From Trichoplax sp. H2 (lineage: Eukaryota), in NCBI GenBank assembly GCA_003344405.1, contig NOWV01000010.1:372001-436000 (forward strand): a DNA stretch of 64,000 bases, written 5' to 3'. Position 1 is the first letter of the stretch. The number at the start of each line of letters is the position of its first letter. Under the pieces are notes generated by a model. The model made no database searches. It saw only the letters and a list, made by a program, of their open reading frames with translations, and was not told the origin of the DNA. The translations under genes and the position numbers were made by a program. Positions 20,813-56,871 of the stretch are shown piece after piece.

Positions 20813-20980
20813 ACTACAGGACTGTACAGTACATTTTGTATTGCATCGTACAGTACAGTATTGTACTGTACGGTATAATTAATTATTGAAACCCAGTACA
20901 GTACCTATTGACATATTCGTAAGGTACTGTACAACCTGTACTGCAGGTTTGAATCTGTGCATCAGATCTCCATAGTACAG
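20813..20980. promoter_or_regulatory. CAGTA/TACTG pentamer cluster at ECM29 5' end
   Basis: actgtacagtac, cgtacagtacagtattgtactgtacggta, cagtacagtacc and ggtactgtaca lie about 50-215 bp upstream of the ECM29 ATG. Confidence 0.6.
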
Positions 20981-21049
20981 TGCGTATCTTATACGCCTCT
21001 ATTGTGACCTATGCATACATATACAGCAGCAGGGACTACTAAGTGTTAG

Positions 21050-21950
21050 GAGAGAAAAACGTTTTCTCTTAGTAGGCAATTATGATATGGTCGATGGACA
21101 GTATGACAATCCAAGATTCTAGGATTGTCGAAAGTTTCGAGATTAACTTGTAACAACTGGTTTAGTTTAATAAAAAACAACATACTTGAGCTAACAGCAT
21201 TACAAGTCAACCTCGAAATTTTTGATAATCCTAGAAGTAGATGGTCATACCTCGGGAATTGACCATATATCATGCAACAACCTTACCGTAAGATTTAGTT
21301 GTCCATGACTTTAGTCTACCGTCAATAGAAGTACTGCACAAAATTACTAGTGACCACGCTTATACGAATGTTATTATATATTAATTATGAATCATTATAC
21401 GTACTTATCCATCCATTCTTTTATAACGGAGGCTTACGAAACTAAATTCATCTACGTATTAAGATTCACATTCACCAGTTGATTGTATACTGTACAACTT
21501 ACGACGTTACAAACTACTTTCCGATTATAAAGCGATATGCTATTATTAACAATCCAATACTAAAGCCATACGTAAATCCGCTTCGGAATTATATAAATGC
21601 ACATGGCCATAAACATTGATTACATTATCGGTTATTTCATATTTTCGATAATCGTAATCAAAAATCTACTAACACTACGAATACTTGATCAGCTTCATCA
21701 CCGATACGGTTACTGATAACTCAACGAAATACATGCGACAATTTAATAAGGGTTATGTAAAGTTGCTATATGATAGCTCTGACTGATTAATTCATAGAAA
21801 TCAGAAGGTAAGATCAAAATATTTTAGACACCGATGAACGAGGGTTAGTATTGACTGTTTTTATTCAATGACGAATTAATGGTTAAGATCATCCAATCGT
21901 CCGAGAAAACTTCATATTTACTTCGAATTAGTACTGTACAGCTTGGACTA
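21050..21950 (+). pseudogene. Decayed LRR-protein fragment, probably the same family as the 300-4830 relic (boundaries approximate)
   Basis: IKNLLTLRILD (21657-21689) and LNEIHATI**GLCKV (21720-21764) are in the same frame. Also GLRN*IHLRI, LPSIEVLH and LEIFDNPR. The 15-mer atgacaatccaagat at ~21102 recurs at 1411. Confidence 0.45.
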
Positions 21951-22348
21951 CAAATAGATGCCCTACAATGAAGGAGAGATGGAAATAAAAGTTAATATGA
22001 TTGTATACGGTTAATTTATATTTCAGAAATTAGCTTGAAAATAGAGTATTTAATTTCGTAACATTTCGGGCTATTCTGTCATTCGTAGTTATCAATCATG
22101 CAGTTATGAAACTATCTTTTAAGACCTAAAGGTATAAATATCTTTAAGCAATGATAAAGCCCCAGAACGCCTCTTTTTAACATTCCTTATCAATTTTATG
22201 GTATACTGTGTATCAAATACTATTAATCAACAGTCACTCAGGGTAAGAAACTACCGAAATCATTCTGCTTGAGTTAGTATAGTATAATCTGCTGTTACCT
22301 TGCATACAATGTAAAGTAATGCAACAAATACAATCTATCCAAACAAAC

Positions 22349-23546
<1,198 letters not shown>

Positions 23547-23581
23547 CGTTATACTATCAAGCAGCACAGCCGATGATCAGC

Positions 23582-23594
23582 AGAGAAGAAGAGG
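23582..23594 (-). promoter_or_regulatory. TCT initiator / 5'TOP pyrimidine tract of RPS28
   Basis: Minus strand reads CCTCTTCTTCTCT, about 45 nt upstream of the ATG. It fits the YCTYTYY TCT consensus typical of ribosomal protein genes. Confidence 0.7.
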
Positions 23595-23843
23595 CTTCCA
23601 CACGTGCGAAAATCTCCGTATGAAGAAAAACTGCATCGTATCTGCCCATGCGTGAAAAATGATGGTACTATACCACGATGGCCATAACCGTCATAAGTGT
23701 ACCAGCACAGTTTATGGCCACTGTTTTGTCCTATAAGGTACAATTACTGTATTCCTACGCATACGCCACTGTTGCGTGTAGTGTAGATCTTTGTACATTC
23801 GCCCATTAGGTATATCGTAGCTAGCTTAATATCGCCGGCCGTA

Positions 23844-23874
23844 GTGACCAGTGACCACTAACCACTGACCAGTG
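23844..23874. repeat. Four tandem heptamers (gtgacca gtgacca ctaacca ctgacca)
   Basis: Read directly from the sequence. Confidence 0.8.
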
Positions 23875-23890
23875 TTACCTACTTTACTTG

Positions 23891-23956
23891 ACCATACCGT
23901 ACCATACCGTACCATACCGTACCATACCGTACCATACCGTACCGTACCGTGCCGTA
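23891..23956. repeat. (ACCATACCGT)5 decamer microsatellite plus ACCGT tail
   Basis: Five perfect copies at 23891-23940, followed by accgtaccgtgccgta. Confidence 0.95.
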
Positions 23957-24113
23957 GCGTCCATCACTCCAAAGCTCGAATCGAATCATTTGATACTACA
24001 GTACAGTACTGTACAGTACAGTACAATATTCCTGTTGATGCACTACTGCGTTAGCCTGTTAGTTATATTTTTTCCCAGTTAAAGTACTGTACAGCGTCAT
24101 TAATTTCAAAAAT

Positions 24114-24185
24114 ACTAGTGCAAACTCCCGTCGCTTTGCTGACGGTTTACGATAATGTGCTCATTTAACAGATAGTATTACCATT
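24114..24185 (-). mobile_element. Helitron-like 3' terminus (hairpin + CTAG), copy 1 of a dispersed repeat
   Basis: Minus strand reads CCGTCAGCAAAGCGACGG-gagtttgca-CTAG-T. A near-identical copy lies at 61616-61697. Confidence 0.55.
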
Positions 24186-24190
24186 TGTCG

Positions 24191-24426
24191 TAGACCTGTC
24201 AGAGGTTCAGTAATTTTATACCGTGTACTGTGTACTGTATGCTGTACAGTACAAATGCACGGTACAGCACTACAATACTGTACTGTACTGTACTGTACAG
24301 TACTGTACTTTTGCTACAGTACTCAGATTGTACTGTACAGTACAGTACTGTAGAACCGAACCGACGAACCACAGTTCACGTTGACGTACTGTAAATCGGT
24401 TCGGAACCGAACCTCTGACAGGTCTA
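24191..24426. mobile_element. 236-bp MITE-like element with perfect 18-bp terminal inverted repeats (hAT-like)
   Basis: TAGACCTGTCAGAGGTTC at 24191-24208 and its reverse complement GAACCTCTGACAGGTCTA at 24409-24426. Subterminal AACCG/GGTTC repeats are present. No target-site duplication is visible. Confidence 0.65.
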
Positions 24427-25014
24427 TACAGATCACTGTAGATTATTCTTATACTGTACCGCACAGTATTGCACAGTACTGTACTGTACTTTTATTAAAA
24501 TACTATACTGTACAGTGTACAGTGTACAGTACAGTGGTACAGTATCGAAACGAAAATAATACTAGTGTGCAGTACTGTACAGTACTGTACGTAATATTCC
24601 ACTGTACTGTACAGTACCATCAGTATACTGTACAGTACTGTACAAATTGCAGTTAGAAATGCACAACGTCTCAAAGATTCATGAGACGTTAACATGGCTA
24701 ATACTGTACTGTACTGTACTGTACTGTACAGTGTACTGTACTGTACACTGTACAGCGTTACAGTATTTATTAGTTTATACTGAAGTACAGTAGAAGAAGT
24801 CCGTGACAGAGTGACACTACAGTACTGTTGACGTTGGATTACGAGAGATGGTTGCGGTCTTATTCCAGTCTTATAGTTTTTGAATGAATTAATTTAATTT
24901 AATCGCCTCCCCTTTTTCAATTTACCTATCCACAGACATGAATATATAGAGTACTCATTTTACTCTTTATGAAAGTATAAACTGTATGTGTGGGTCTATA
25001 ATAGATATGACAAG

Positions 25015-25689
25015 ATGGTTTTAGAAGGTAGAATTACTAAAGAAGAATTTAACGACTTGGTTCTCACGCTGATCGAAAAGTCCCAACAATTGCACGATGA
25101 ATGGGAAAGGATCGAACATGTTTGTGGTGATAAAGTCATTTATTATTTATGCAAAAGAAATTACTATCGATTAGTTAACCCAACAAGGGTATCATCCAAC
25201 AATAATGCTATCTTGGATGATGATACCGATGATGACGAAGCAAATGATATCTTACAAAATTGTAGTACAATTGAACCTGAAGATAACAACTGCTGCAATA
25301 GTCTTGCACAAGCGCCTAATAGCCAAAATCACCAACAAGTTTATCATGTTTATGAATATCATATCGTTTATAGTCCGGCTTATTCCGTGCCAGTGTTATA
25401 TTTTGACCCAAAAACAACCGATGGAAGAAGATTAGCTTTAGAAGAAATTTGGAACACCGTCAATTTAGAATATGCACAAAGTGTTAAGTATGATGCTTGG
25501 TCTTTCATAAGTCAACAAGAACACCCTTTGCTGGGTAGAGTTTTTTACTTTATTCATCCTTGTCACACGTCAAATTTCATGCAAATCATCACTGGAAAAG
25601 GATCGAATGAAAAACTTTATTTATGCACATGGCTATCTGCAGTCGGCCCTGTTATCGGTTTACAATTGTCCCCATCATATTTCCTGTAA
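25015..25689 (+). CDS. ATG10: Ubiquitin-like conjugating (E2-like) autophagy enzyme ATG10, single coding exon
   Basis: YEYHIVYSPAYSVPVLYF, EEIW, ISQQEHPLLGRVFYFIHPCHT (catalytic HPC) and YLCTWLSAVGPVIGL. First in-frame ATG is at 25015, after a probable 5'UTR acceptor at 25004. Confidence 0.95.
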   Translation: MVLEGRITKEEFNDLVLTLIEKSQQLHDEWERIEHVCGDKVIYYLCKRNYYRLVNPTRVSSNNNAILDDDTDDDEANDILQNCSTIEPEDNNCCNSLAQAPNSQNHQQVYHVYEYHIVYSPAYSVPVLYFDPKTTDGRRLALEEIWNTVNLEYAQSVKYDAWSFISQQEHPLLGRVFYFIHPCHTSNFMQIITGKGSNEKLYLCTWLSAVGPVIGLQLSPSYFL

Positions 25690-26496
25690 ATATTGTAACA
25701 AAGTCGTGACAAATGTGATATACGCATACCTGTACAGTAAGGTAATCATCGATTACTCTAGTAGTGCCTTACGTGGTACCAACTGATAGCTAATTTGTTA
25801 CAATTTCACAGCTCTTTGCTTTCATATAAAAAGAACAGTATTCAACCCCATTATATTTGAGTTTCATACTATGTACTGTACTCATAATGATATGTCCTGT
25901 ACAAAGTAGTTATAGTATTATTATGCACATAAACTTGCACGATACGATGATGGAGAACGTAATATATTTATTTATTTTTATATAAAATTGAAATGTTATA
26001 ATCGCAGTACATAAGATTTATAAGCATTTTATAGAATATAAAACAAGTTATGCCATTGTACATTAAATGTTGTAGTATATTTAATATATAGGGTATATAT
26101 TTGTATACTTCATAGTCTTCCTGAGTGCTTGAGCTTGGCATAAGATGAATAGTTAAGATAAGAATCAATGTAAAACTGTATGGTAATATGAGACTTGACG
26201 TTAAATTTAGCCTATAATGGAGAATCACTCTGAGATGCTCAATAACCAGAATGTAGCAATTTTAGTAGTTGTGGTAATATCCAATACCACTTTACATAGA
26301 TACTTCATATACAGTATTGTCCAGTTATAAAATTAATCGAACATGACAGAATTACTTAATGCTATATAGATGTTGCATATAGACATTATAATCCTAATAA
26401 TGAAAGATTTAATACTATCTAGAAATGAATAAATATAAAAATTGTATTGACGACTAAAATCTATACAAACTATATTATACAACAAGGAAATTCAAA

Positions 26497-29400
26497 TCAT
26501 TGTAACCTGGAGCACCGTTCTGATCCTTTTTCTGATGATTTTTCGAGTTTAGCAATTCGTGATCCGAACTGAATTGCTTTTTTTTCCAATTTTGATGATT
26601 GATGTAATCCTAATGATTGACCAACCTGTCTTAGTAACAATTTATCGCCAACTCCTTTGGGTAATCGTAAATCAGCCTAGCATTAAAAAGTAGCCGCAGC
26701 AATGTATGCTTTAGTAATCAAAGTATTTCAGTACATGTTCCAATTTACAAGTTATAATCTACAAAGCTTATCTAGGCTAGCAACCTTATTCCAAATAGGC
26801 AAACTATTCAGAAAAGATACAACGTTTTCATCAAGATAAGGGAATCTGGCCTCTCTATTGTGATCACTTATACACCTAATAATATTAAATGTGAAAGATA
26901 AAGGATCGCTGTAACATAAAAAGTGAAACAAAAAGAAACAAAATTTCGTACGTCTTTGATTGTTAGACAGCTATAACTTGCGTTAACGATCACTATAGCT
27001 TAGTAATATAATCTCAGCAAAAATAACGATATTAACCTGTCGTCACGTCCTAAATTGCGTGTAGATATACGTGAGATCTCCATTTCGACTTCTTTTACCA
27101 AACCTTCCCATCCATCTCTCCTATAAATGTGTCACAAAAACAGTTGACAAGAGAATGTCAAAGTCGTATCACACAATATCAACAAGTTTATCATACTAAA
27201 TGAACTAAAATAATTTAATCAACTTTCGCACATGAATCTCGTTCGATGTCTTGCATAACCGGCAAGCTGTTCGTCTGCTCCCATTCCTACAAGTAGAACC
27301 TGAAAAGTATGCACCGGTTAAAAAAACAGTATTAGTAGAAAGATAAATAAAAGTAGAAGATGATTGCAAATATACAGAGTATATTGTTACGTTAATTACT
27401 AGTTTGTACAATTAAAATACCTTCGCAGAACTACAGTAGGGTAAAAGTGAGCCCTTATCACAATCTCTAATGAATCCTCTTCCTCTAGCAGCAAACCATA
27501 TCGCACAGCCGATACTGTCATCTAAAACCGTTCGATGAGGATGGACTAGATGTTTGACGTGATTTTTCCTGAGTGATAAATGTAGTGCTTAAATCATATT
27601 CTATACACTTTAGATGTAAAATACTGTAAACAATCACAGTGTGTACTACTATATTAAAATATTTTATCTTATTTCTTACCGAACTTCCTGCAATTCTTCC
27701 GATGAAATATCGACCTAAAACAAACAGTTTAAATTAAATACATTATGATAATTATTATGTTACTTTACAATAATTTCTAAGATCCACAGAACTGTTCGCA
27801 AAAAGGCGGAAGCAAATTACCTCGATAAAATTCCACTGACGACGTACATTACTTCTACGCAGCTCTTGCAATACTTCTCTACCGCTAATGCGATCAGGAA
27901 CCTCAAATATACTATCACCTGAGTGATTCTTTGTAGCAAAAGCGACATTTATTAAATCTATCGATTCGCCACTTGGTATGTGCCTTAGTAAATTTATTAA
28001 AGATAATATATAAGACATGTACAATACTAGCTACAGATCGAATACTACAAATTTTATCTAAGAGAATATCTACCTATCCGCTAAAGCAGCTACTATGGCA
28101 GAATCGATACCTCCAGAGTATAATACTGCAATTCTAGCTTTACGACTGTGCTTAAGGCTCTGTTCTTCGTCAACATTCGCTAAATGTACACCACAATCAG
28201 GTGAGATACAGCAAACACGTTTTCTAACGGCCTCGCTAAGTATCGAATAAAAATTATCTACTAAGGATTTCTGATAGATTTCATCATCTGCATTGTAATT
28301 ATCTGAGGGAAGTTGTCGAAGAAAAGGCTTCAAATGATTTTTAATTTCCAAATTATCGTGTATGCTATACCAGCGACCAAACGCATCCTTAAATTCTGCT
28401 AATTCTTGCGGTTGCATACATTGTACTTCAAGATCGATCATGTTCAGCCTATAAGGACTATGCCATGGGTAAAGTTGAACCGATTGACTGTATTCAGTCA
28501 ATTGCATCCCACCATTAGCTACATTCAGTCGCGTTAGATTAAGGCAAAAAATCCCGAGTGCGGGAAGTTCAAACCATTCCTGTGAAATGTACGTGCTGAT
28601 ATCAATAGTTGTACTTTTACAGCGAATTAGTAAGACATCAGGTTTACAGGAAAAAATTTTTTAAATCTACTAACATATTCGCTACATTTTGGGGCTACGG
28701 AAGAGAGTGCAAAGTAATCATTTTCATTAATCGGTAAATGAACAAGTAAGCTACGTCTACCAAATATATCACGTCCAAACCATAAAAGATTGCTAGCTGC
28801 CTAAGGTGAAAAATAGAATATCGATTACAAGAATAGGATGTACTTTCGATACCTCAATAACTATGATAAATAATTAATGAAAAGTTCATATGGCACAATT
28901 ATTAATTATTATCTTAGGACTATACTGCATAGTGTTAAGTCAATTAATATAGTAGCATGGCATTTCATTTTCATGCAAACAGTAATTTAAGTCCTTTGAG
29001 ATGAACGTGCCTTGGTGTGTTTAATGTTAGTACGCGTATTTCTATGACAATAATTGGCAGCACTACAGCTACAAGTTACTATAAAACCGGTATTATACTT
29101 TGTTTAAATCATCACAGCGTAATATCGGTTACCTATAGTCACAGTACTAAAGTCTAGTCAGTTGATTACCTGATAATATATAAATGCATATGGTCCATCT
29201 ATTTTCGAAAACGCATTTAAAATATCCTTTACTGCAGCACCACTTGCTTGTAAATAATTTAGCAAGCTCATAGTATCGCTTTCAGTTTCTTCGACCTAAC
29301 ATAATGGATGAATGTCACTTACGAATTTCAGCCTGTTTGTCAAAAGCTTATTCGTATCATATCGAAATTTTTTAAACCTCTAGGCCTCCAAATATTTCCC

Positions 29401-29855
29401 CATTCCATAATAATACATTTCCGTTAGCATCGATAGCCGGCTGGCATCCTAATTTCTCTCCTCTAAGATGTAGCACACAGCCATGAAAGTTCATCGTTTT
29501 GCTAGTACCATTGACACGGATATCATGAAAGCCTTGATAATCAGATCCTCTTCGCGCAATGAGTTGGAGGGCCTTCTCATAATATGGCTGTCCATTACAT
29601 AGAAGCAAGCAATGCCGTAATTATAAATTTTTCGATTAAAGTTAAAATTATGGAGGTCAACCGAAATGATAAGGTTCTATCATTGTAAGCAGCTGTAAAT
29701 AGCCTGTAATAACATCGAATGACAGGAGCATTACATTTTTACATGCAATGCATAATGAATTGCAGTGCTGTACATTTACACGAATGCGAGTGTACAATTC
29801 ATACCTTAAACTCTGTTGCATGACTAAATTGCAGCCAAAAGCAAATACCGCACAT
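26497..29855 (-). CDS. ASNSD1: Asparagine synthetase domain-containing protein 1, multi-exon
   Basis: N-terminal MCGIC (Ntn fold), [44 protein letters not shown]-loop, [33 protein letters not shown] and [12 protein letters not shown]. Stop TGA at 26497-26499. Confidence 0.95.
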
Positions 29856-30027: not shown

Positions 30028-30220
30028 TGTAGTACTAAATACAGTACACTGTACAGTAGGCTGGGACTCAGGTGTTTGCTTCGATCACAAACCGGTGGCG
30101 CATACTGTACACTGTACAGTACAGTAGGAGGTTTGGATACTGTACCAAGTACTGTATTGTACAGTATGTACTGTAAAGTATAGTGGTACAGTACTGTATT
30201 CTGTAGTCTAATGCAGTACA
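30028..30220. promoter_or_regulatory. CAGTA/TACTG pentamer cluster in the divergent ASNSD1/GET3 promoter
   Basis: acagtacactgtacagta, tactgtacactgtacagtacagta, agtactgtattgtacagtatgtactgta and gtacagtactgta lie between the two start codons (29855 and 30536). Confidence 0.65.
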
Positions 30221-30535: not shown

Positions 30536-32915
30536 ATGGCAAGTTATGCTCAAGAAGAGGACGAGTTTCAGGAATGTTACGAACCTTTAGAGCCAACATT
30601 ACGAAATGTTATTGATCAGTCTTCGTTACGCTGGATATTCGTTGGTGGTAAAGGCGGTGTTGGAAAGACAACATGTAGGCAAGTATTTGAATAATCAAAA
30701 AGGAGCTTCTTCCTTGCTAAGCCGTCATGCAATACAATTGTCAACCGATTTACTGCGTGTTAGTAAAGTATACTTTATGGCTGATATTATCTTGATAATG
30801 AATAATGATAGAGTAGTGATGAAATAGTATTCGTTAGTTAAAATAGCAATTCCAGTCTGGTATCTTTTACAACCTACTGTATGTACAGTACTAAAATATT
30901 TGCAAGAGCTTTTGAATATAATCAGATGTGAATTTATCCAATGTAATGGTCTTTCCTACGTATGGTAGAATGTCGCTTTTAAAATTGTACATCTGAAGCA
31001 GTTCCTTGTAATTTGTTAGATAGATAAGTGAACTTCATCTTTGCTATGTATTAGCAGATTGATAGAATAGCTAAGGCTGCCTCTTCAGTACTGTCGTCTA
31101 TCTAGTGTGTCCCCTCTAAAGTATTATGATATGATCTTTATGAAAGGATAAGAGAGCACACCTGAAGCGGACAGTATGGTATTAGCCATAGCAACTAAAC
31201 ATGCCGAGTACACAATATCAAAGTAGTCTACAGTTAAGCTAAGCCGCTATCTAACGTAGATGTATATACTGTACATAGCATTACTTAGGCTATGCAATTG
31301 TAAATTTTGGATCGTTAGTACCACTATCAGTATTACTACAATATCATTAGCGTATTTCTAATTTTCTGTACTTTGCACACTTTAGTTGTAGCTTAGCAAT
31401 ACAGCTAGCCAAAGTTCGTGACTCCGTTTTAATTGTTTCCACCGATCCGGCCCACAATATCTCTGATACCTTTGGCCAAAAATTTACTGGCGAAGCAACG
31501 CCAGTAAACGGATTCAACAATTTGTTCGCTATGGTAAAAAAATTCCTATGATTTGTCAATAGATAATGTAATGTTGCGATAATATGGCCACTTTCTTGAA
31601 TGTATGTATTCGACTATATTATATCTTGTCTATTCATGTATAGGAAATCAACCCAGCATCAACTCTTGATAACGTGACAAGTAAGAATTTGTACATATTA
31701 AAGCTTGTCTTCGATTTAAATCGGTTCTGTTCGTCAGTATATTGTTTTCCGTCAGTCAATCGATATCTTCTCATTAAATGGTGTATAGTATGTACACGAA
31801 TTCATAGATGGATCCTTATCTTACAGATAATTCTAGCAATCCACTTATAAAAAATTTGATGAGTTCTATTCCTGGGATTGATGAAGCCTTTGGTTTTATG
31901 GAAGTTCTAAAGTACGTAAATGCTTGAATAACAAAATCTGACCTATTCTCAAGTATATTTAATAGGCTACAATTATGTTTTTCTTATTTTTTAATAGTTT
32001 AATTAAAGACTATAACTTCTCTGTCGTGGTATTCGATACTGCCCCTACTGGCCATACTTTGCGATTTTTATCCCTTCCGAAGACATTTGAGGGAATCCTC
32101 CCAATGTTTTCAGGTTCTGCAGCACAACAGTCAGTCGTTAATCAGGTAAATTAAAATGAAATTGATACACTGGCTGTTATTTAATAGTCAACATATTGAT
32201 CTACAATATTTCATTCATTAGTTTGCTAGTCTTATGGGGTTTAAATCACTTGGTGAAGGAGATAATGTTCACACAGCTATGCCGCTAATCCAATCCGTTA
32301 GTGAACAGTTTAGAGATCCTGTAAGCAACGCGCCCTTTATTATCTATGATTTCTGTTGCTGTTATTTCTATACAATGTTAATGGTAATGGTAATCTTTCT
32401 GTATTATAACCAGGAATTAACTACCTTTGTTTGCGTGTGTATTGCTGAATTTCTTTCACTATACGAAACTGAGAGACTAGTTCAAGAATTGTCAAAGTTT
32501 GGCATTGACACTCATAATGTTATCGTAAATCAACTTGTCTTTCCATCGACAGGTAAATCTGTACTGTACTTACGCAAAAATAATTAAATACTGCAGTCTT
32601 GATCGGCAATGTTATATTCACCTAATATTAATTAATTCTGTTATACAGACAAAAGTTGCGAATTATGTTCCGCTCGCCAAAAGATCCAAAAGAAGTATCT
32701 TGATCAGGTACGAACGATAGTGATGTAATACATTTTCAGCTCAACTTACTATTTCTTAATAAAATGATATTGCTATAATACCTCTATAGATTATCGACCT
32801 ATACGAAGACTTTCATATTATTAAACTCCCCTTATTACCCCATGAAGTACGAGGATCAAACCATTTAAGAATGTTTTCAGAGTACCTGTTTAAAGGCTAT
32901 TCGGTATCGTCATGA
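30536..32915 (+). CDS. GET3: GET3/ASNA1/TRC40 ATPase for tail-anchored protein targeting, multi-exon
   Basis: [77 protein letters not shown] zinc motif and [23 protein letters not shown] at 32913-32915. Confidence 0.97.
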
Positions 32916-35042: not shown

Positions 35043-37223
35043 ATGGATATTTTGATCCATAAATTGACTTGCTCAAGTTGCGGAAATATCTTTAATGAGC
35101 CAAAGATTCTTCCATGCCTACATACTTTTTGTAAAAATTGCATAGAGGCATTTATGGCTGAAGGAAGTGCATTTTGTCCCGTCTGTAACAAGAAAATAGG
35201 TATGAGGCATATTGATGAATTATCTGATAATGTCTTTTTACATAGCGCTTTTGATATGCTGGCGTTAATGAAAGATAGAGAATCTTTTAATTGCGACGTT
35301 TGTGATCCTGGTGATAGTAATAGTGTAGCTTTCTTTCGTTGTCCTGAGTGTATGCAATATTTATGCGAGCTGCATGGTAGTGCTCATTTAAAAGCAAGAG
35401 CTACTAAATCTCATCAGTTATTCACTATTGATCAACTTCTCTCCAGTTGGAATTTGGCCCATCTTAATCGCCCCGCTTGCTGTAGTCAGCATTTTAAAGA
35501 ACATTTATCAAGTTTTTGTGAGCAATGCGACTACCCAGTATGCAATATATGCATAGTTAATGAACACAAAGGACATCCTCATATGGCTATTGATCATGCT
35601 AGCAATATTTTCAAACCTACAACAAGTAATTTAATCGGAGAAGCTAAACCTCGTATCATAGAACTGCGCGATGCTATTTCTGGAATTGAAGAAATGTGTA
35701 AGAATATTAGCGAAAATGCTGATTTAGCTCTTGATGATATCGAGGAATGCTTCAATAGACAAATTAACACCTTAATGGAGCGTCGAAAGCAACTAGTAAC
35801 CGAAGTTCAGACCTGCAGAATGGAACGACTAGAAGCTTTACATGAACAACGAGATAGGTTACAAATGCGACTGTTAAGTGTGAGTGAGATGTACAGTTTT
35901 GTAAATGATGCCGTTAAAAACGGCAATGCTGCAGATTATTTGGATATCAAAAATGCAATTAACGAACAACTTCAAGCAATCATCAAGCATAAAGAAGAAT
36001 TAGATGTTGTTGAAGAAGACTATATAGCATTTCATCCTAACGATATTGCTACTCAGGTAGCAATTAAATTCCTCGGCTATATCGATACACGCTATGCTTA
36101 TCCTCCTTTATGTACAGCAGAAGGTCCCGGCTTAGAAATAGCTAGAAGAGTCGAGCCTACTGTCTTTACAGTGTTAACGAAAGATAAAAAAGGTAAACTA
36201 TTAACTCGTGGCAGTGACAACATTGAGGTTATCATTGAAGGGAAAGGGAGAAAAGATGTACAAATTATCGACAATGAAGATGGAAGTTATACAGTAACTT
36301 ATATTCCAATACCAATTAGTGAAAATGTTGTTCATATATATGTGAAAGGTCTACCAATTTTAGGGAGTCCTTTTAGAGTTCCCTTTAATGTACGTGATTA
36401 CACAAATATTACTTCGCCATTAATTATATTAGGTAGATATGGACTCAATATAGGTGAATTTCGTTCACCATCTGGGGTCGCTATTGACGATAAGAGGTGC
36501 CTACTAGCTGTTTGCGATCGAGATAATATTAGAATCCAAATATTTGATTTAGCTAGTTATGAGCATGTCAGTAGTATCGATGTTTCAGGTCATATGCAAG
36601 ATGGCCCATTCGACATTGCTATTGATGGCAAAGGTCGTTTATTAACAACTGATCCAAAAGGCAATGGTATATTTGTCTTCGATGGTGATGGAAATATGTT
36701 ATATAAAATTGGAAGCCGAGGGCAAGAAGCTGGCCAATTTGGCGGGCTATGTTATATTGCTGTTGATAATGCAAATAATATCTATATCTGTGATAGCGAT
36801 AATTCCCGCATCCAAGTATTTGAAGAAAGGGGTACTCTAGTAGACTGCTATGGTAACTATGGAAATGAAATGAGACAATTTAATTTGCCCGCGGGTATTT
36901 CAATAGGATCGAATGGCAATATCTATATCGCCGATCGAGGCAATCATCGTATACAAATTCTGGATTCTAATGGTCAATTTATTCATGCATTTGGCGTAAG
37001 AGGTAGTCTTAATGGAGAATTCGATTTTCCTCATGGCATAGCAACAGATGTTCAAAATAACGTTATTGTTGCCGATCATTACAATACTAGGTTGCAAATT
37101 TTTAATTCAGAAGGAGAGATTATACATAAAATTGATAACATCATCTTACCACATTGTGTCGCCTGTGATCGATGTGGACATATTTATGTTACAACTAAGG
37201 ATAATAGGATTTATGTATTTTAG
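35043..37223 (+). CDS. TRIM-NHL E3 ligase (RING, two B-boxes, coiled coil, filamin, six NHL repeats; TRIM71/lin-41/TRIM2-like architecture), single coding exon
   Basis: C3HC4 RING CSSC...LPCLHTFCKNC...CPVC; B-box1 CDVC...CPECMQYLCELH; B-box2 CSQH...FCEQCDYPVCNIC..EHKGH; filamin DNEDGSYTVTY...GSPF; NHL repeats F..P.G.A...D..N.RIQ. First ATG at 35043. Confidence 0.93.
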   Translation: MDILIHKLTCSSCGNIFNEPKILPCLHTFCKNCIEAFMAEGSAFCPVCNKKIGMRHIDELSDNVFLHSAFDMLALMKDRESFNCDVCDPGDSNSVAFFRCPECMQYLCELHGSAHLKARATKSHQLFTIDQLLSSWNLAHLNRPACCSQHFKEHLSSFCEQCDYPVCNICIVNEHKGHPHMAIDHASNIFKPTTSNLIGEAKPRIIELRDAISGIEEMCKNISENADLALDDIEECFNRQINTLMERRKQLVTEVQTCRMERLEALHEQRDRLQMRLLSVSEMYSFVNDAVKNGNAADYLDIKNAINEQLQAIIKHKEELDVVEEDYIAFHPNDIATQVAIKFLGYIDTRYAYPPLCTAEGPGLEIARRVEPTVFTVLTKDKKGKLLTRGSDNIEVIIEGKGRKDVQIIDNEDGSYTVTYIPIPISENVVHIYVKGLPILGSPFRVPFNVRDYTNITSPLIILGRYGLNIGEFRSPSGVAIDDKRCLLAVCDRDNIRIQIFDLASYEHVSSIDVSGHMQDGPFDIAIDGKGRLLTTDPKGNGIFVFDGDGNMLYKIGSRGQEAGQFGGLCYIAVDNANNIYICDSDNSRIQVFEERGTLVDCYGNYGNEMRQFNLPAGISIGSNGNIYIADRGNHRIQILDSNGQFIHAFGVRGSLNGEFDFPHGIATDVQNNVIVADHYNTRLQIFNSEGEIIHKIDNIILPHCVACDRCGHIYVTTKDNRIYVF

Positions 37224-38696
37224 CACAGTAAAATAATATTGAAAGCTACTTAAATTAACAATCATCAAATCTTTGTGGTAATGTAATAACATGATAACAA
37301 TCATGGTTAATAATAATGCGATGTTTAGTAGTGCTATACAATACAGCAAAACAGTAGTAAGCACAGATTTTGGTAGACTGCCAGCAAGATATGTTCAAAA
37401 CACTTATACTTAGTATGTAATTTTATTTCGTTGCATAATAGCAACAGCGATCTTATAAAAATAATAATGCATGATCTCCATTGTAATTAAATGATATATT
37501 TTATCATTTCCAATCTTGATGTTCCTTTTCGCCCGTAGCTACGGTAGAGTTACGAGATATAGCTCTGTTTGTTTTTCTAAGATAATCATTTCGTTTAACA
37601 ACACTTTCGGTGTATTAAATTCCTATTATATGATATTTTATCAATTGATTGCATTTCATGCAAGCGTATCACAAACCTCGATTAAAAAGTTATTTGATTA
37701 AATGTATAACATTTGCAGGATATAACTGATTAATAGATAGATTTTTATGATGTTTTGACGTAAAGGTATGGTCCTACTAATATTTTCTTACGACATTGCG
37801 ATACAAGGCTGCTTACAACTCGCAGGGAGATCATTGTATGATTAGCGTTAGCTTATTCGCAAGCTTTATAAAAGAATTTACCATAAGAAAATATCAGCTA
37901 ATCAGATTAGTTTCAAGATACATTATATTAATGATTTTACGACACAAAAAAATTGTTAAACCAAAGATAAACACTATTTTGGGGATTTAGGCTTACTTCA
38001 AGTTGTAGCAAATAAGGTGCCAGCTAAATTAGTTCCGAGAGCAAGTCAAGAGATATTACGGCTAATAATATAATTATTATAATAGCAGCTAATTTTACGC
38101 TACAGTACATGCTGTTCAGTGCTTATACAAATCTAAACACAATTTGCAACTTTATGACTCTTTACACGCCCATTAACTGACAATTACTGTAGTGAAGAAG
38201 GTATCGAATCTGGATTAAAAAAGAATTAAAGAAAGCATTATATGAAGTGTACTAAAGTATTCTATATTTTATAGTCTGCCCTGTATTACAATCTGTGAAA
38301 TTTGTTATATCATATTAGCATCATAGAGCCAATCATTGAGCACACAATATACAGCAGTGATATCATTTACACCAAAGACAATCTTTATGAGACAATTATA
38401 TCAGACCAAGAAAAATAAAATTATGTGTAAACATTAGAATCGCACTTATAATAAGAAAATATTAGAAATAGCAACAGCAATGAAAAATTTAAATTTTCTA
38501 AAATATATACAGCTCAAGTAAAATCAATTATGAGTAATTATAGTAACAAAGTTGCAATAATGTAACATAGTGAATCGATAGCTAATAGAGATAATAACAT
38601 TGTAAATATAAATACATCACAAGAATCTCAATGCGGTCGTCGATGGTTTTCTCTCACGAACTGACAACGGTGACATGCTATACTGTAAATGTTAAA

Positions 38697-41600
38697 TCAC
38701 GTACCGATTTGATCACAATTTTCTATTAAAAAACCTCGATTTATAACTGCTTCTATAATAGCATCGCCATGGTTATAGATATCAATTTCAAACAAAAATC
38801 GTTTGCTTTGTAATTGATTTTCGATCTCTTTTACATATTCAGGTGTGATAGAATGCCTAACCGATAGAGTACCGCGCGATAGTACTGAACATATATCGAA
38901 AGTAGACTGAGTATCGTTAGGTGGATAATTTCCAGCCATGCGATAATCACGATCAGTATTTGTAATCGGAATAAAGAATGCATCTATTGCTATATTCCTA
39001 TTTAAACTTAACAAAGTTAAAATCCAATACTCATCAATAGCATCATAACGATCTGAGTTAATGGCGATAGGTATAGCCATTTCACCAGGAATCGAAATAT
39101 CTTTATTAATTTTAAGGCCATAAAGGCGTTCGTGCGCACCTTGTGGACTCTCCTGTTAAACATAAATAGTAATTTTATTATAAACAGATTAGTGTACCCG
39201 GACATATATAAATACGCCAGCGAAAAAGTACGGTACATTTTTTTGTGCAGTAGTTTTAAAGATTATACCCGTTCATTGGAGTGGAACGGGCCTTATGAAA
39301 ATCAATCTTCCAGAACCTTCTCACAGTACGTTACTTCTACAGTAGTTTTAAAATACATTACTGGACCATATTACTGTTACTTAAGGAAAAAGACTATAAA
39401 TGCGGAAGGATACAATTACTTCATATAATATAGATGGATGTTTAGTTAACAATTTAATATTATTTATTTGTTTATAGCACGATCATTCCTACTGATATAC
39501 GTAAAACAATTTGTATTACCTCCGAAATACAGTCGCCGACATCGTCTCTTTTTTGGCTATATATTCCACTATCGTGCGAATATACTATGCTAGTATTGAT
39601 CGGCGGATTATGGAGTATCGTCGACGAAGATAACTTCTTTCCGTCATTTAAATTACATACTACAAGGTGAGATACAATAGCCTGCATTTTAAATCGCTCT
39701 GATTGCCGGTAGTGTATCTCTTTCGCTCGCTTAGCAACTACTTTTGCTGTTGTAATCTAAATCAAAAAAACATTGCACTTAAGGTCATGAATAAAAGCTA
39801 GGTATTGCAACAATAAATATATGCTTAACAATGAGACGTACATCTATGTCATTGCCATCAAATGCTGACATGATATTTTGCAAATCAATTGGACAAGGTG
39901 GATAACAGTAATATCCTCCGTAGCAAGCATGAGAAAGGATTTCCTTGGCTTCATCAGACAAACACCATCTAAGCAGTTGTTGATATACAATACAATCGCC
40001 AAACACGGGATCCTTTACACTTGTGGATACTGCACTTCTAACGCATAGCTTTCATATTTCATGATTAATCAATCAATTCCAATATATATGAATGATCAAA
40101 GTTATCAACACTGTATGATAAATAGTACATGTAGATCTTGTTATTGTGATTGTAAGGTATCAATTACCTGCGAATAAATAGTAGTGGATAAGTGCAAGTA
40201 GCGAACACTTGCGGAATTTCTTAAGGTGTGATGCACCATAACACTTGAACATATTAGTATTTTGCCTTAATTAGAATAGTAAAATATGTCCCTTATTAGT
40301 TACTAATCAACATCAATTCGTATTATTTTATTTCGCATCTAGCAGACCTATCTCAATTTCTCTTATCATTTCCGGTTGTGACAGAGCGTAAATTCTCACA
40401 ATAATTGGCCAGTTGCAAGAACCGTCATATAAATGGATCCAAAATGATTCCGACATTTCTACTCATACACAACAATTGAAGTGCTATTAAAATATTTAAT
40501 CATGTAAAACTATATACGGTAACAACATGATTGCCTAATTGGTGATAATATAAATTTCGTAAATTTATTTGATAGAGTAGTTTTAATACATACAGTATAT
40601 ATAAAAATAAAAGCTTAGCTTGTACTAACAATGAGCCGTGTATACTATCCAACTTACCACCGGATTGATTAGATTTTCTACTCCAACGATACGGTCTGCC
40701 AACGTATGTAACCAAACCCATCACATCACATATACAATTACTTTTTAAATTTATAAGAGATACGCTGTTATGAAAATTATGGTACAGAGTCGGTAAATCA
40801 TTGTACAAGTTAATATCGCTCAATATAACAATTTCTCCTTTAGGATTAGAGGGGTTTACTGCAAATTCGAGTTGACTGATATCATCCAGTAATTCTAAGA
40901 ATGAAGAATTAATAGCAAGATGCTCTTAATTCGCACAGTGATTAGTATTTACTCAATCACAGATGTAATAAATGTTATCTTCATCTACTCCTTATTTCTC
41001 ATTCGTCAAGCCGATAATCACGTATTAATATATTATTTTGCTCTAAACTGATATAAAATCAATTAGAAATATGTACAGTATATAGTCGGCACTCATAAAT
41101 AAATGATATTAAGGAATGAATCTTTCCTAGGCTAATAAAACTGATAATTATTGTATAATCAATAAGTTAAGAAACGTTCACTATATTCTTACCATTGTCA
41201 GCTCTTGTAATATATTCATGTGCTGGACGAACTTTATAGCCGTTAACCAAAATAACATCGTCAACTTTCAATAGTTTAAAGTATTTAACGGCTACATTGC
41301 TCCATAAGCAAATCGACACGGCAGATGAGGCATCGGCAACAATAATCGTCATAACATACGGTAATTTATTTTTATCGCTAATTTTCCCGTAATGGCTGAG
41401 TCTTGATTTCTTGACAATTCTGCCAATAATTGGTGGATAAGACTTGTGTTTATCTCCTTTGGTTTCAAATAGTCTGGTGACATCTTCAATGTTAGCAACT
41501 TTTTTGGAAGTTTGAATTGCAGATGCTTCCGTCATTCTAACTGCAGAATTACCGACATATTCATCCCAGATGCTTCCATAATAGTCTACGTCATTCCACA

Positions 41601-42877
41601 TTGGCAAATAGTATCTAAATGGATTGGAATAGTTACTTTGCAAAATATATTACGTTGAATAGCAGATTATACACATTCTACAGTTCCATACACTTAAACA
41701 AGCTAGGAATAACAATTTATAGTATAGGTATACTATCATATACAAAAATTGTACAGTTATAATTTTCGAGTAAGAAAGGAATTCTAACTTACGGCAAAAA
41801 GTACACTTGCACCCTATCACATGCTATTAAAGACAATCTATAGCTATCATTGCTCGAACAAGTTATCTTGACCTCACCTACGTCTAGAAGCAAGTGGCAA
41901 AGAGTCAATCTCACGTTCTGAAGCTTCTGGGCCAAATCGCAATTCGTGTTCGAGATCAAGCGCAAAATCATTGGCAACAATCTGCAAATCTTCAATATAT
42001 ATATAAGGCTTGCCTCGAACATCAGCTTCATTGTATTTAATAGTCGTGCGTTGTATATCGACAACAGAGTGAGTTTGAAGTAATCCTTTGTGAATCATGG
42101 AGTTATACTTGTGTGAAAGAACAAATTTGGCCTTAAGTCTACCATCGCTTATAGTTAAATCGAATGTATCCAGTGGTAATTCATCGTCATCGGTATAGTT
42201 TTCATGATATGCAATATCTGTGAGGTATCTAAAATACATCGATAAATTGTATTATCACTACAAGCCGTACTAATTACTGTAGTTGAACATAGATTTAGTA
42301 TAATTGATTGAAAGAGTTGTAAGTATGAACCTGTAGACAGCAGTGGCTACGGTCTTGTATATATGTGGTCTACTGACTACGGGTAAAAGTGCAAACTACT
42401 ACTATTTTTCATCAATACATGCGATATACAGAACTGTCCCCTAGGTACAGTACACATCAACTGGTATCATAGCTGCAGCAATTGTACAGTGTACTGTACA
42501 CTCTCGTATAGTCCGTGAAATATGCTATCGATGGATAGAGCTTAAAGCAGCTACATTTCGCTAATACATCATTTAAGAAGTAAGACGCATCATTCCATTT
42601 AAGTTCTCTCTATCAAGGATCAACACTTGTCGGTTGTCCAGGATGGATTATATTATAGTTATTCGTGCATACGGAAGCGTGTGTGTTATTGTCCACTATC
42701 TTATTCAAATAGTCCAATTTATAATGTAATGGTTATTATGGAGTATGAAATTAGTCTGCCTCTTTGTTACCTTTCGATTTCCGTGACCACCGATACAAAC
42801 TTTGAGTTTGTATCTTGATTGGATGCATTGACCAAAATGTTACGTAGCGGAGTTAATCGCAATTGCTCGTCTTGCAT
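38697..42877 (-). CDS. RADX: RADX (CXorf57)-like multi-OB-fold ssDNA-binding protein, about 9 coding exons (start codon uncertain)
   Basis: Collinear with human RADX as remembered: VSVVTEIER|YLTD, FDLTISDG, YNE, YYLPMWNDVDYYGSIW, GRIVKKSRLSHYGK, VADASSAVSICLW, CICDVMGLVTYVGR, FWIHLYDGS...LSQPE, GGYYCYPPCP, EIHYRQSERF and LLSLNRNIAIDAFFIP. GT-AG exons join in frame. Confidence 0.88.
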
Positions 42878-43429
42878 AGGTCGCAACGTCGTATTCTCTT
42901 TAGCACCTGCTTCAATTTTAAAATTACACTGCACAAAATTGAGCAGATATTAACGGCAATGAAGATGGATGTCACCTACTGTAGGATTTGTTGTTCAACT
43001 AGTTTCTCTTGGCGATTTTAATCTTTCAACTGTAAATATTACTTCGTCTTGAAGATGGTGCAATCTAACTGTGGCAATCAATACGACAACACTAAATTGA
43101 AGTTGATGAATTCCTTACTCGTCCTTGCGTCCTGACGTCTGTATGATTCCTGTATACCATAAATGCATCCTTTGCCCGGTTATGAATTTCTGTCCGAAGA
43201 GTCGACCGACTACAACTACTGAACTCAAATTTTAGCGATTCTATTAGAACGGGCTCCTTATTCTTTTCAATCGATTGGAGTGTTTGCAGTTTCACTCTTG
43301 GCGTTTTTCTGACCCGTTTGTGTCGTTTTCAATAAGATTTCCTCCAATGTATTGACTTTGAGATATGTTGCAATTACTGATTTTCGCAGGTTGTTGAGCA
43401 GCATTATCTCGAGACGAAGGCGGGCACTT

Positions 43430-43688
43430 CAGTACTGTACTGTACCAGTACTGTACTGTACAGTACAGTACAAGTACAGTATGTCGTGAGTTGAATGTCA
43501 TTACACGTACAGTACAGTACAGTACTGTACCGTACAGTGTACAGTATTACAGTCGTAACAGTCTACGGTCTGTTGTACTGTAAAGTTCAGTACTGTAGCC
43601 TAAAAGGTACAGTACAGTATTGAGATGTCGTTCTACAGTACTGTACTGTACTGTACTGTACGGTACAGTACAAGATTTCGACTACAGG
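43430..43688. promoter_or_regulatory. CAGTA/TACTG pentamer cluster at the RADX-like gene 5' end
   Basis: cagtactgtactgtaccagtactgtactgtacagtacagtaca, gtacagtacagtacagtactgtaccgtacagtgtacagta and tacagtactgtactgtactgtactgtacggtacagtaca. Confidence 0.65.
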
Positions 43689-56794: not shown

Positions 56795-56871
56795 AGCTAG
56801 AATAGAATATATCTGCTTCATTTACTAATTGTTAATGACATAGTCGAATTGGCATTAGTTGAATCCTAATC

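What the first reader, a model, noticed from the sequence alone, without database searches (positions are those of the whole stretch)
20813..43688. GTAC-pentamer (CAGTA/TACTG) arrays mark housekeeping-type promoters but not the lipase or TRIM starts
Seen: dense arrays of a 5-bp unit occur at 20813-20980 (ECM29), 23994-24830 (RPS28/ATG10), 30028-30220 (ASNSD1/GET3) and 43430-43688 (RADX-like). The unit places GTAC every half helical turn and reverses direction at TGTACA/AGTACT palindromes. Elsewhere there are only isolated copies and small patches, and no array precedes the four lipase ATGs or the TRIM ATG. Lipase 3 has a TATA box instead. Inference: this is a repeat-encoded, strand-symmetric promoter identity system that splits genes into two promoter classes. 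It could be a multivalent protein-binding platform, a nucleosome-excluding or cruciform-forming tract, or a functional analogue of CpG islands. From memory, chromatin-conformation work on placozoans reported housekeeping promoter hubs linked to a transposon-derived motif. I cannot verify that it is the same motif, so novelty is uncertain.
Basis: partly seen in the sequence, partly recalled or inferred. Interest (0 to 1): 0.78.

Follow-up and report, generated by a model that had tools for sequence, protein, structure and literature searches.

The report
Known Trichoplax ACAGT promoter microsatellite arrays
The repeats are real and sit in front of broadly needed genes, but they are the (ACAGT)n promoter microsatellite of the placozoan Trichoplax adhaerens, first described in 2010 and since linked to 3D genome folding, and what binds them is still unknown.

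Summary
Four dense arrays of a 5-bp unit (GTAC plus A or T) lie at the stated coordinates. GTAC[AT]GTAC occurs 63 times against 0.48 in shuffles. The window is Trichoplax adhaerens.

Arrays lie upstream of 6 of 6 housekeeping-type gene starts (ECM29, RPS28, ATG10, ASNSD1, GET3, RADX-like) and of 0 of 4 others (TRIM-NHL, three lipases).

It is not new. Wang et al. 2010 described (ACAGT)n as the dominant microsatellite of this genome, with 54% of copies within 1 kb upstream of genes and enrichment at ribosomal-protein genes. Their table lists three of these four arrays. A 2026 paper ties repeating ACAGT to chromatin insulation, and a 2025 paper describes housekeeping promoter hubs carrying a motif.

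Best reading: a strand-symmetric, multi-copy platform for an unidentified chromatin factor. Binding is inferred, not shown.

Three points came out of this work:
- The unit equals the canonical Tc1/mariner excision footprint TAC(A/T)GTA.
- The arrays mimic TIR+TSD structures, so a structure-based "Mutator" label may be an artefact.
- Single TACNGTA heptamers are over-represented window-wide.

A fourth lipase and the TATA box were not verified.

The parts
20813..20980 (.). Array 1: 12 GTAC cores and 5 GTACWGTAC. It lies about 50-220 bp upstream of the ECM29 start codon (ATG at 20764, minus strand).
   Evidence: The ECM29 exon 1 reading (MTDVAANL, then a gt donor, continuing ELLERLL) comes. ECM29_N Pfam positions 1-43 match at 20335-20502.
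23891..23960 (.). (ACCRT)n tandem repeat: a 10-bp unit ACCATACCGT x6 at 98% match. It reads TA-CCG/TA-CCA in the same 5-bp frame and abuts array 2. It may be the published 'repeating ACGG' type.
   Evidence: The link to 'ACGG' is my inference.
23994..24830 (.). Array 2: a zone of about 840 bp made of pentamer blocks. It holds 44 TACWGTA heptamers and fills the divergent RPS28 (minus) / ATG10 (plus) intergenic region.
   Evidence: RPS28 exons come (ATG at 23546). ATG10 comes (ATG at 25015). It is listed in Wang 2010 Additional file 5 for gene 57861.
24191..24426 (.). MITE-like element nested in array 2. It has perfect 15-16-nt terminal inverted repeats (GACCTGTCAGAGGTT) flanked by TA on both sides, and pentamer blocks inside.
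   Evidence: 2 exact copies in inverted orientation, and no other exact copy in the window.
30028..30220 (.). Array 3: 11 TACWGTA heptamers, between divergent ASNSD1 (minus, ATG at 29855, MCGICF...) and GET3 (plus, ATG at 30536).
   Evidence: It is listed in Wang 2010 Additional file 5 for gene 50459 at 259 bp, which matches my distance of 259 bp.
42445..42499 (.). Small patch of 5 GTAC inside intron 1 of the RADX-like gene.
43430..43688 (.). Array 4: 27 GTAC cores and 22 TACWGTA heptamers, including the longest perfect palindrome in the window (24 bp, 43448-43471). It lies about 555-810 bp upstream of the annotated RADX-like ATG (42877, minus strand).
   Evidence: It is listed in Wang 2010 Additional file 5 for gene 57865 at 572, 623 and 766.5 bp.
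35043..37220 (+). TRIM-NHL gene (TRIADDRAFT_57864), single exon. No array upstream: 0 GTACWGTAC in 1 kb, and the nearest is 2474 bp away.
45876..60168 (+). Three tandem pancreatic-type lipase paralogues (45876-47860, 50476-52641, 58991-60144). No array precedes any of them.

Best explanation
These are the (ACAGT)n / (GTACW)n promoter microsatellite arrays of Trichoplax adhaerens. Each array is a patchwork of short blocks of 2-7 units. A palindromic GTAC core recurs every 5 bp, and the fifth base is A or T almost at random, so both strands present the same cores.

The arrays occupy promoter-proximal DNA, often between divergent gene pairs, of genes needed in all cells.

Most likely function: a multi-copy, orientation-free docking platform for a still unidentified sequence-specific chromatin or architectural factor, probably one that multimerises. 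Such a factor would keep these promoters open and insulated and let them contact one another in promoter hubs.

Shown here: the arrays, their statistics and their positions.
Shown in print: the genome-wide upstream bias, the housekeeping GO enrichment, and the association of the motif with insulation in a sequence-to-contact-map model.
Inferred: protein binding, multimerisation and causality.
For: Identity:
- The window is T. adhaerens (100% identity to TRIADDRAFT_57864; TRIADDRAFT_57865).
- Three of the four arrays are rows in Additional file 5 of PMC2871265, and one distance matches mine exactly (259 bp).

Non-randomness:
- 63 GTAC[AT]GTAC against 0.48 in shuffles.

Constraint on the unit:
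- The spacer is G or C in only 4 of 67 cases against 33% expected from composition (p = 1e-7).
- A or T choice between neighbours is near random: 17 same, 11 different (p = 0.35). This fits recognition of a symmetric GTAC(W) core.

Position:
- 6 of 6 housekeeping-type starts have arrays against 0 of 4 others.

In print:
- 54% and 85% of ACAGT loci lie within 1 kb and 5 kb upstream of genes. GO terms translation (58 genes) and protein modification (155 genes) are enriched, and the authors proposed a transcription-factor site.
- Keyword tallies in their table: ribosomal protein 75, proteasome 52, splicing factor 24; trypsin, chymotrypsin and pancreatic 0. There are no denominators, so this is crude.
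- 'Repeating motifs ACGG and ACAGT' were found for T. adhaerens and confirmed by in-silico mutagenesis of a contact-map CNN.
- GP1 housekeeping promoters form hubs and carry an enriched motif that is conserved in orthologous promoters of four placozoans.
Against: - No binding protein is known, and I could test none.
- The CNN result and the hub data are correlative.
- The motif letters of the 2025 paper are only in a figure, so I cannot say that its motif is ACAGT. The 2026 paper equates it with 'ACGG' instead.
- Distances to start codons vary from about 60 to about 555 bp, and no TSS data were available.
- The housekeeping versus cell-type-specific labels here rest on gene names only. The three lipases are tandem paralogues, so they are not independent.
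- Single TACWGTA heptamers are over-represented across the whole window, including the lipase block at 1.29 per kb. This points to a mutational source for the word itself.
- Tandem duplication within the arrays (7-, 10- and 15-17-bp periods) shows neutral repeat dynamics at work.
Confidence: 0.55

Rival explanations
1. Neutral by-product. The arrays are ordinary repeat dynamics confined to nucleosome-free, constitutively open promoter DNA. Replication slippage, unequal exchange and strand-switching at quasi-palindromes would generate them. Their link to housekeeping genes and to 3D contacts is then a consequence of open chromatin, not a cause.
For: - TRF finds nested periods of 5, 7, 10 and 13-21 bp inside the arrays.
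- The 10-mer at 23891-23950 is 98% identical over 6 copies.
- The arrays are highly self-complementary: z from -2.9 to -5.5 in 7 of 8 segments, and the four longest perfect palindromes of the window all lie in arrays. This favours template switching, which could scramble A and T.
- The word TACNGTA is over-represented even far from promoters.
Against: - The same unit recurs at four independent loci here and at thousands genome-wide, making up 78% of all pentanucleotide repeats. No other pentamer behaves this way in the window.
- The fifth base is held to A or T (4 of 67 G or C).
- The published motif is conserved in orthologous promoters of four species, if that motif is related.
Confidence: 0.25
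2. Stacked transposon scars. Each unit is an excision footprint of a TA-targeting Tc1/mariner-type element with CAG...CTG ends. Every insertion-excision cycle at a TA adds C(A/T)GTA. Repeated traffic through open promoters would build (TACWG)n with a random A or T.
For: - Canonical Sleeping Beauty footprints are exactly TACAGTA or TACTGTA (PMC6943129). The arrays are overlapping runs of these heptamers, 83 of them in the four arrays.
- A or T choice is near random and G or C nearly absent.
- Single heptamers are 2.4-fold over expectation outside the arrays (73 against 30.8) and are spread window-wide.
- A TA-flanked MITE-like element sits inside array 2.
- The 2025 paper itself raises targeted transposon integration into active promoters.
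Against: - T. adhaerens has 0.13% TE content, 11 Mariner/Tc1 fragments and no active element. The model needs tens of thousands of fixed footprints.
- No element with CAG...CTG ends and no transposase domain is in the window. None was found among 358 ORFs of at least 45 aa, nor among the 149 of 769 shorter ORFs that were scanned.
- Tc1/mariner elements are not known to prefer promoters (recalled).
- TACSGTA is enriched too (24 against 10.8), and CAG or CTG ends do not explain that.
- Long perfect one-direction runs in the published table (up to 48 bp) need slippage anyway.
Confidence: 0.08
3. Remnants of Mutator (MULE) terminal inverted repeats inserted into promoters. This is the reading offered in the 2025 chromatin-loop paper.
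For: - PMC12221973 states that GP1 promoters often contain Mutator insertions whose TIR contains the loop-anchor motif.
- The arrays here are rich in inverted repeats.
Against: - A simple TIR (14 nt, at most 2 mismatches) plus TSD (8-11 nt exact) scan gives 61 hits in the window. All 61 lie inside the arrays, with both the 'TIR' and the 'TSD' made of the pentamer itself. There are 0 hits when the arrays are masked and a mean of 0.15 in shuffles.
- That paper annotated TEs with the structure-based EDTA pipeline. The TIR-Learner candidates that pipeline uses had a false-discovery rate of 30.8-57.3% in rice before further filtering, although EDTA does filter tandem repeats.
- A homology-based survey found only 6 MuDR fragments (3.5 kb) in the whole genome and very few MITEs.
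- No MULE transposase domain is in the window.
- The 2026 paper assigns the TE-linked motif to 'ACGG', not ACAGT.
Confidence: 0.08
4. A purely structural element. The arrays act through DNA mechanics (cruciform extrusion, flexible TA and CA steps every half turn, nucleosome exclusion) without any sequence-specific reader.
For: - Excess hairpin potential.
- Perfect palindromes up to 24 bp.
Against: - Most palindromic arms are short (7-12 bp).
- One of 8 segments shows no excess (z = -0.78).
- Folding of single strands says nothing about extrusion in chromatin.
- Nothing here measures nucleosome occupancy.
Confidence: 0.04

Closest known systems
(ACAGT)n microsatellite of Trichoplax adhaerens (Wang et al. 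2010, Biol Direct 5:18, PMC2871265)
   Same: The same species, the same unit and the same upstream-of-gene bias. Three of the four arrays here are rows in that paper's Additional file 5.
   Different: That paper counted only perfect repeats longer than 12 bp and treated the repeat as a one-strand microsatellite. It did not describe the GTAC core, the free A or T choice, the direction switches, the inverted-block architecture or the contrast with cell-type-specific genes.
'Repeating ACAGT' insulation-associated motif in T. adhaerens (Chimaera, NAR 2026, PMC12817080)
   Same: The same pentamer in the same genome, tied to Micro-C insulation by a CNN and by in-silico mutagenesis.
   Different: It is a model-derived association with no locus-level anatomy. 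Its supplement could not be read here.
Loop-anchor / GP1 promoter motif in 'Mutator TIRs' of placozoans (Kim et al., Nature 2025, PMC12221973)
   Same: Housekeeping promoters, promoter hubs and a short enriched motif with inverted-repeat context.
   Different: The motif letters are only in figures, and two supplementary PDFs are images. equates this motif with 'ACGG'. In this window an ACGG-type repeat occurs at 1 of the 4 array loci (23891-23960).
GAGA elements with GAF, and CGATA clusters with BEAF-32/DREF, at Drosophila housekeeping promoters (recalled)
   Same: They work alike: clusters of a very short motif in either orientation at constitutive promoters, read by multimerising factors that open chromatin, insulate and tether promoters.
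   Different: The motif is different and no reader is known in placozoans. This is an analogy only and was not tested here.
Canonical Tc1/mariner (Sleeping Beauty) excision footprint TAC(A/T)GTA (PMC6943129)
   Same: The heptamer is letter-for-letter the overlapping unit of the arrays.
   Different: Footprints are single events at donor sites. Arrays of them have not been described: a five-term literature search found no paper, which is weak evidence. No donor element was found here.
CpG islands
   Same: A sequence-composition mark of constitutive promoters (analogy).
   Different: The arrays are CpG-poor. CpG observed/expected is 0.37-0.80 against 0.93 for the window, and GC is 37-41%.

Membership tests
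(ACAGT)n promoter microsatellite of T. adhaerens (Wang 2010) | Pentanucleotide unit ACAGT/ACTGT in perfect tandem runs longer than 12 bp | tested here: met
   Examples are 24706-24729 (5 cores), 43507-43525 and 43638-43657.
(ACAGT)n promoter microsatellite of T. adhaerens (Wang 2010) | The organism is Trichoplax adhaerens | tested here: met
   100% identity to TRIADDRAFT_57864. All eight tblastn segments of TRIADDRAFT_57865 map to the window at 91-100% identity.
(ACAGT)n promoter microsatellite of T. adhaerens (Wang 2010) | Lies within about 1 kb upstream of a gene, and the locus is catalogued | tested here: met
   All four arrays lie 1 kb or less from a start codon. Three of the four appear in Additional file 5 (genes 57861, 50459, 57865). 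The ECM29 array has no perfect run of 15 bp or more and is not among the rows I read (part 31 of 53).
Loop anchor / GP1 promoter hub (Kim 2025) | A Micro-C loop anchor with ATAC and H3K4me3 peaks | not testable with these tools
Loop anchor / GP1 promoter hub (Kim 2025) | Carries the published loop-anchor motif | tested here: inconclusive
   The motif is shown only in figures. describes it as repeating 'ACGG'. An ACGG-type repeat sits at 1 of the 4 loci.
Mutator / MULE DNA transposon | Terminal inverted repeats flanking unique internal sequence, with a 9-11 bp target-site duplication of host sequence (TSD length recalled) | tested here: not met
   All 61 TIR+TSD candidates have a TIR and a TSD built from the pentamer itself. 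There are none once the arrays are masked.
Mutator / MULE DNA transposon | A MULE transposase or a relic of one | tested here: not met
   No transposase family matched among 358 ORFs of at least 45 aa, nor among the 149 of 769 ORFs of 28-44 aa that were scanned.
Tc1/mariner excision footprint | TA + 3 terminal nucleotides of the element + TA (TACAGTA or TACTGTA for CAG...CTG ends) | tested here: met
   158 TACWGTA in the window, 83 of them in the four arrays.
Tc1/mariner excision footprint | A matching donor element with TA|CAG...CTG|TA ends in the genome | not testable with these tools
   No placozoan genome collection is available. None is in the window. The one TA-flanked MITE-like element has GAC...GTC ends.
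CpG island | High GC and a CpG observed/expected ratio near or above 0.6-1 relative to a depleted genome | tested here: not met
   The arrays have CpG o/e of 0.37-0.80, below the window average of 0.93.
Known non-coding RNA gene | A match to an Rfam family or a tRNA | tested here: not met
   0 Rfam matches at gathering score and 0 tRNAs in the window.

The most novel reading that the evidence does not exclude
The arrays are stacked excision footprints. A TA-targeting Tc1/mariner-type transposon with CAG...CTG ends repeatedly entered and left constitutively open promoters. Each cycle added C(A/T)GTA, so (TACWG)n would be a fossil record of transposon traffic, which a chromatin factor may later have adopted. 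On the same reading, the published 'Mutator TIR' link would be a by-product of structure-based TE calling on these self-complementary arrays.
Probability: 0.08. Interest if true: 0.75.

Novelty: already known. Interest (0 to 1): 0.3.

Why it matters
Placozoans have no CTCF, yet they build thousands of promoter-promoter contacts. The (ACAGT)n arrays are the most abundant simple repeat in this genome and sit at the promoters that form such hubs.

Finding the factor that reads a symmetric GTAC(W) array would give a handle on a non-CTCF way of organising housekeeping genes in an early-branching animal. That question is still open, but it has been posed in print since 2010, so this finding does not open it.

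What this re-examination adds is modest:
- A sharper description of the unit.
- A caution about the 'Mutator' label.
- A testable idea about origin (transposon footprints).

Tried and rejected
- Motif letters of the 2025 paper. They are not in the text or in the four readable supplements. Two supplementary PDFs are pictures only.
- The supplement of the 2026 paper was too large to read. The preprint version has the same wording.
- Literature searches for the motif strings together with Trichoplax gave nothing relevant. A whole-word search for ACAGT plus Trichoplax gave only the 2010 and 2026 papers.
- A rule linking unit direction (A or T) to the direction of the neighbouring gene: none is apparent.
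- ncRNA or tRNA genes in the arrays: none.
- CpG-island-like composition: no.
- A gene diverging from ECM29 to the right of array 1 (21.0-22.3 kb), or to the right of array 4 (43.7-45.8 kb): no convincing ORF or Pfam match. These two arrays may therefore serve one gene each, or an unannotated transcript.
- A fourth lipase: not found at E < 1e-3, and only noise at E < 50.
- Other copies of the MITE-like TIR: none in the window.
- Cross-species conservation. The only sequence collection open to me holds bacteria and archaea, so orthologous placozoan promoters stayed unchecked, and I did not spend that scan.
- The structure-prediction and complex tools were not used, because no candidate binding protein emerged.


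Full report
**What is there.** They are patchworks of short blocks in which GTAC recurs every 5 bp with one A or T between cores.

Measured against 100 dinucleotide-preserving shuffles of the window:
- GTAC occurs 356 times against 191 +/- 12.
- GTAC[AT]GTAC occurs 63 times against a mean of 0.48 (maximum 3).
- There are nine clusters of five or more GTACs against a mean of 0.03.

Of 355 gaps between successive GTACs, 67 are exactly 5 bp, 13 are 7 bp and 7 are 10 bp. The single spacer is A 28, T 35, C 2, G 2. Thirty-six chains of 2-7 cores at 5-bp spacing exist. Fifty-three of the 63 GTACWGTAC sites lie in the four arrays and ten are isolated.

**Where it is.** The window is Trichoplax adhaerens. 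The single-exon TRIM-NHL ORF is 100% identical to TRIADDRAFT_57864, and the RADX-like exons map to TRIADDRAFT_57865. Pfam scans of all 358 stop-to-stop ORFs of at least 45 aa, and of 149 of the 769 ORFs of 28-44 aa, together with reading of the sequence, give this map:

| Gene | Strand | Position |
|---|---|---|
| ECM29 | minus | ATG 20764 |
| RPS28 | minus | ATG 23546; long first intron; pyrimidine tract about 40 bp upstream |
| ATG10 | plus | ATG 25015 |
| ASNSD1 | minus | ATG 29855 |
| GET3 | plus | ATG 30536 |
| TRIM-NHL | plus | 35043-37220 |
| RADX-like | minus | annotated ATG 42877 |
| Three pancreatic-type lipases | plus | domain exons from 45876, 50476 and 58991 |

GTACWGTAC counts in the 1 kb upstream of each start are 5, 17, 27, 2, 2 and 16 for the six housekeeping-type genes. 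They are 0 for TRIM-NHL and for each lipase.

That is 6 of 6 against 0 of 4, with three caveats. The functional labels rest on gene names. The lipases are tandem paralogues. Several stretches of the window remain unannotated. Two arrays sit between divergent gene pairs.

Distances to the nearest start codon run from about 60 bp (ECM29) to about 555 bp (RADX-like, whose 5' UTR is unknown). I had no TSS data. I found three lipase genes, not four, and could not verify the TATA-box remark.

**It is already in print.** Wang et al. 2010 (PMC2871265; I read passages, part 31 of 53 of Additional file 5, and ran keyword searches of that file) reported the following:
- Pentanucleotides make up 61.8% (7,233) of the 11,697 microsatellites of T. 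adhaerens.
- 78% of those pentanucleotides are ACAGT.
- 54% and 85% of ACAGT loci lie within 1 kb and 5 kb upstream of genes.
- The associated genes are enriched for translation (58 genes, mostly ribosomal proteins) and for protein modification (155 genes).
- The authors suggested a transcription-factor binding site.

Their table lists arrays upstream of genes 57861 (ATG10-like; 359 and 293 bp), 50459 (ASNSD1-like; 259 bp, identical to my distance) and 57865 (RADX-like; 572, 623 and 766.5 bp). Three of the four arrays here are therefore catalogued. The ECM29 array lacks a perfect run of 15 bp.

Ribosomal protein gives 75, proteasome 52, splicing factor 24, translation initiation factor 18 and tRNA synthetase 11. 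Trypsin, chymotrypsin and pancreatic give 0. 'Lipase' gives 16; the seven of these rows I saw were mostly phospholipases, several at long distance, plus one 'lipase A precursor'. These tallies have no denominators and are only indicative.

**Later work on 3D folding.** Kim et al. 2025 (PMC12221973; passages) found that about a third of T. adhaerens genes form promoter hubs. These are the GP1 genes, which are housekeeping and highly expressed. Loop anchors and GP1 promoters carry an enriched motif that also lies in the TIRs of elements annotated as Mutator. The motif is present at orthologous GP1 promoters in four placozoans.

The motif is shown only in figures, and two supplementary PDFs are images, so I never saw its letters.

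[quoted passage not shown] The pentamer of this finding is therefore in print as an insulation-associated motif. By that account it is a sibling of the transposon-linked motif rather than the same one.

In this window an ACGG-type repeat, (ACCRT)n at 23891-23960, occurs at one of the four loci, directly beside array 2.

**What the anatomy adds.**
- The fifth base is constrained to A or T. Only 4 of 67 are G or C against 33% expected (p = 1e-7).
- The choice between A and T is nearly independent from unit to unit. There are 17 same and 11 different neighbour pairs (p = 0.35; permutation 0.16). The arrays are therefore better described as (GTACW)n than as a directional microsatellite.
- I saw no rule linking direction to the neighbouring gene.
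- Blocks often pair as inverted copies across short spacers. Seven of eight array segments fold as single-stranded DNA better than their shuffles (z from -2.9 to -5.5), and one does not (z = -0.78).
- The four longest perfect palindromes of the window are all in arrays, the longest being 24 bp at 43448-43471. This shows the capacity for hairpins or cruciforms, not their formation.
- The arrays are not CpG-rich and match no known RNA family or tRNA.

**A caution on the Mutator label.** I ran a deliberately simple detector: a TIR of 14 nt with at most 2 mismatches, next to an exact direct repeat of 8-11 nt. It yields 61 candidates in the window, and all 61 are inside arrays 2 and 4, with both 'TIR' and 'TSD' made of pentamer units. 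Masking the arrays leaves none, and block shuffles give a mean of 0.15.

Kim et al. annotated repeats with EDTA, which finds TIR elements by structure. Its own benchmark reports a false-discovery rate of 30.8-57.3% for the TIR-Learner candidates in rice before further filtering. It also filters tandem repeats, which may or may not catch such interrupted arrays.

The 2010 homology-based survey found only six MuDR fragments, few MITEs and no active element in the whole genome. No transposase domain appears in the window.

I could not run EDTA, and the TE-linked motif may be the ACGG type, so this is a flagged possibility and not a demonstration.

**An idea on origin.** The overlapping unit TAC(A/T)GTA is letter for letter the canonical excision footprint of Sleeping Beauty-type Tc1/mariner elements: TA, then the three terminal nucleotides CAG or CTG, then TA (PMC6943129, passage). 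Repeated insertion at a TA followed by excision would add C(A/T)GTA each time.

Several observations would fit this:
- The A/T-only, near-random fifth base.
- The 2.4-fold excess of single TACWGTA heptamers outside the arrays. There are 73 against 30.8 under a third-order Markov model, the top of 32 TA-NNN-TA pairs.
- Their spread across the whole window, lipase block included.
- A TA-flanked MITE-like element (24191-24426) that sits inside array 2.

Several observations count against it:
- The genome is almost free of transposons.
- No element with such ends is in the window.
- TACSGTA is enriched as well (24 against 10.8).
- Tandem duplication clearly operates in the arrays.
- Strand-switching at quasi-palindromes could also scramble A and T.

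I give this origin about 8%. A five-term literature search found no paper proposing footprint arrays, which is weak evidence of absence.

The best reading is a strand-symmetric, multi-copy platform for an unidentified chromatin factor at constitutive promoters (about 0.55). The main rival is that the arrays are a neutral consequence of open promoter chromatin (about 0.25).

Neither can be settled without the chromatin data, other placozoan genomes or a binding assay, and none of these was available here. Novelty: already known.

Noticed in passing
window 23891-23960: A 10-bp tandem repeat, ACCATACCGT x6 at 98% match, lies directly beside array 2. It reads TA-CCG/TA-CCA in the same 5-bp frame. 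It may correspond to the 'repeating ACGG' motif reported for T. adhaerens.
   Followed up: partly
window 23843-23874: A 7-bp tandem repeat, AGTGACC x4.6, lies about 300 bp upstream of the RPS28 start. Its GGTCAC core resembles the Drosophila Motif 1 / M1BP site (recalled). notes an M1BP-motif effect in T. adhaerens.
   Followed up: no
window 24191-24426: A 236-bp MITE-like element with perfect 15-16-nt terminal inverted repeats and TA on both flanks. It is nested in array 2 and contains pentamer blocks. There is no second copy in the window.
   Followed up: partly
whole window, outside the arrays: Single TACWGTA heptamers (73 against 30.8 expected) and TACSGTA heptamers (24 against 10.8) are the two most over-represented of the 32 TA-NNN-TA heptamer pairs. 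They are spread over all regions, including the lipase block.
   Followed up: partly
window 22864, 23344, 30883, 32561, 42445, 42491: Isolated GTACWGTAC copies lie in introns of array-bearing genes (RPS28 intron 1, GET3 introns, RADX-like intron 1). The 12-kb ECM29 gene body has none.
   Followed up: no
window 23581-23594 (minus strand): A pyrimidine tract, CCTCTTCTTCTCTG, lies about 40 bp upstream of the RPS28 ATG and looks like a terminal-oligopyrimidine start. It is about 300-400 bp from the arrays, so the arrays are upstream of this core promoter rather than within it.
   Followed up: no
window 45876-60168: Three tandem pancreatic-type lipase genes with PLAT domains were found (62% and 52% identity in the first domain exon).
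   Followed up: yes
window 42878-43429 (minus strand): About 550 bp lie between array 4 and the annotated RADX-like ATG. They contain a short upstream ORF (ATG near 43404) and candidate splice signals, so the published gene model may lack a 5' exon or UTR intron.
   Followed up: no
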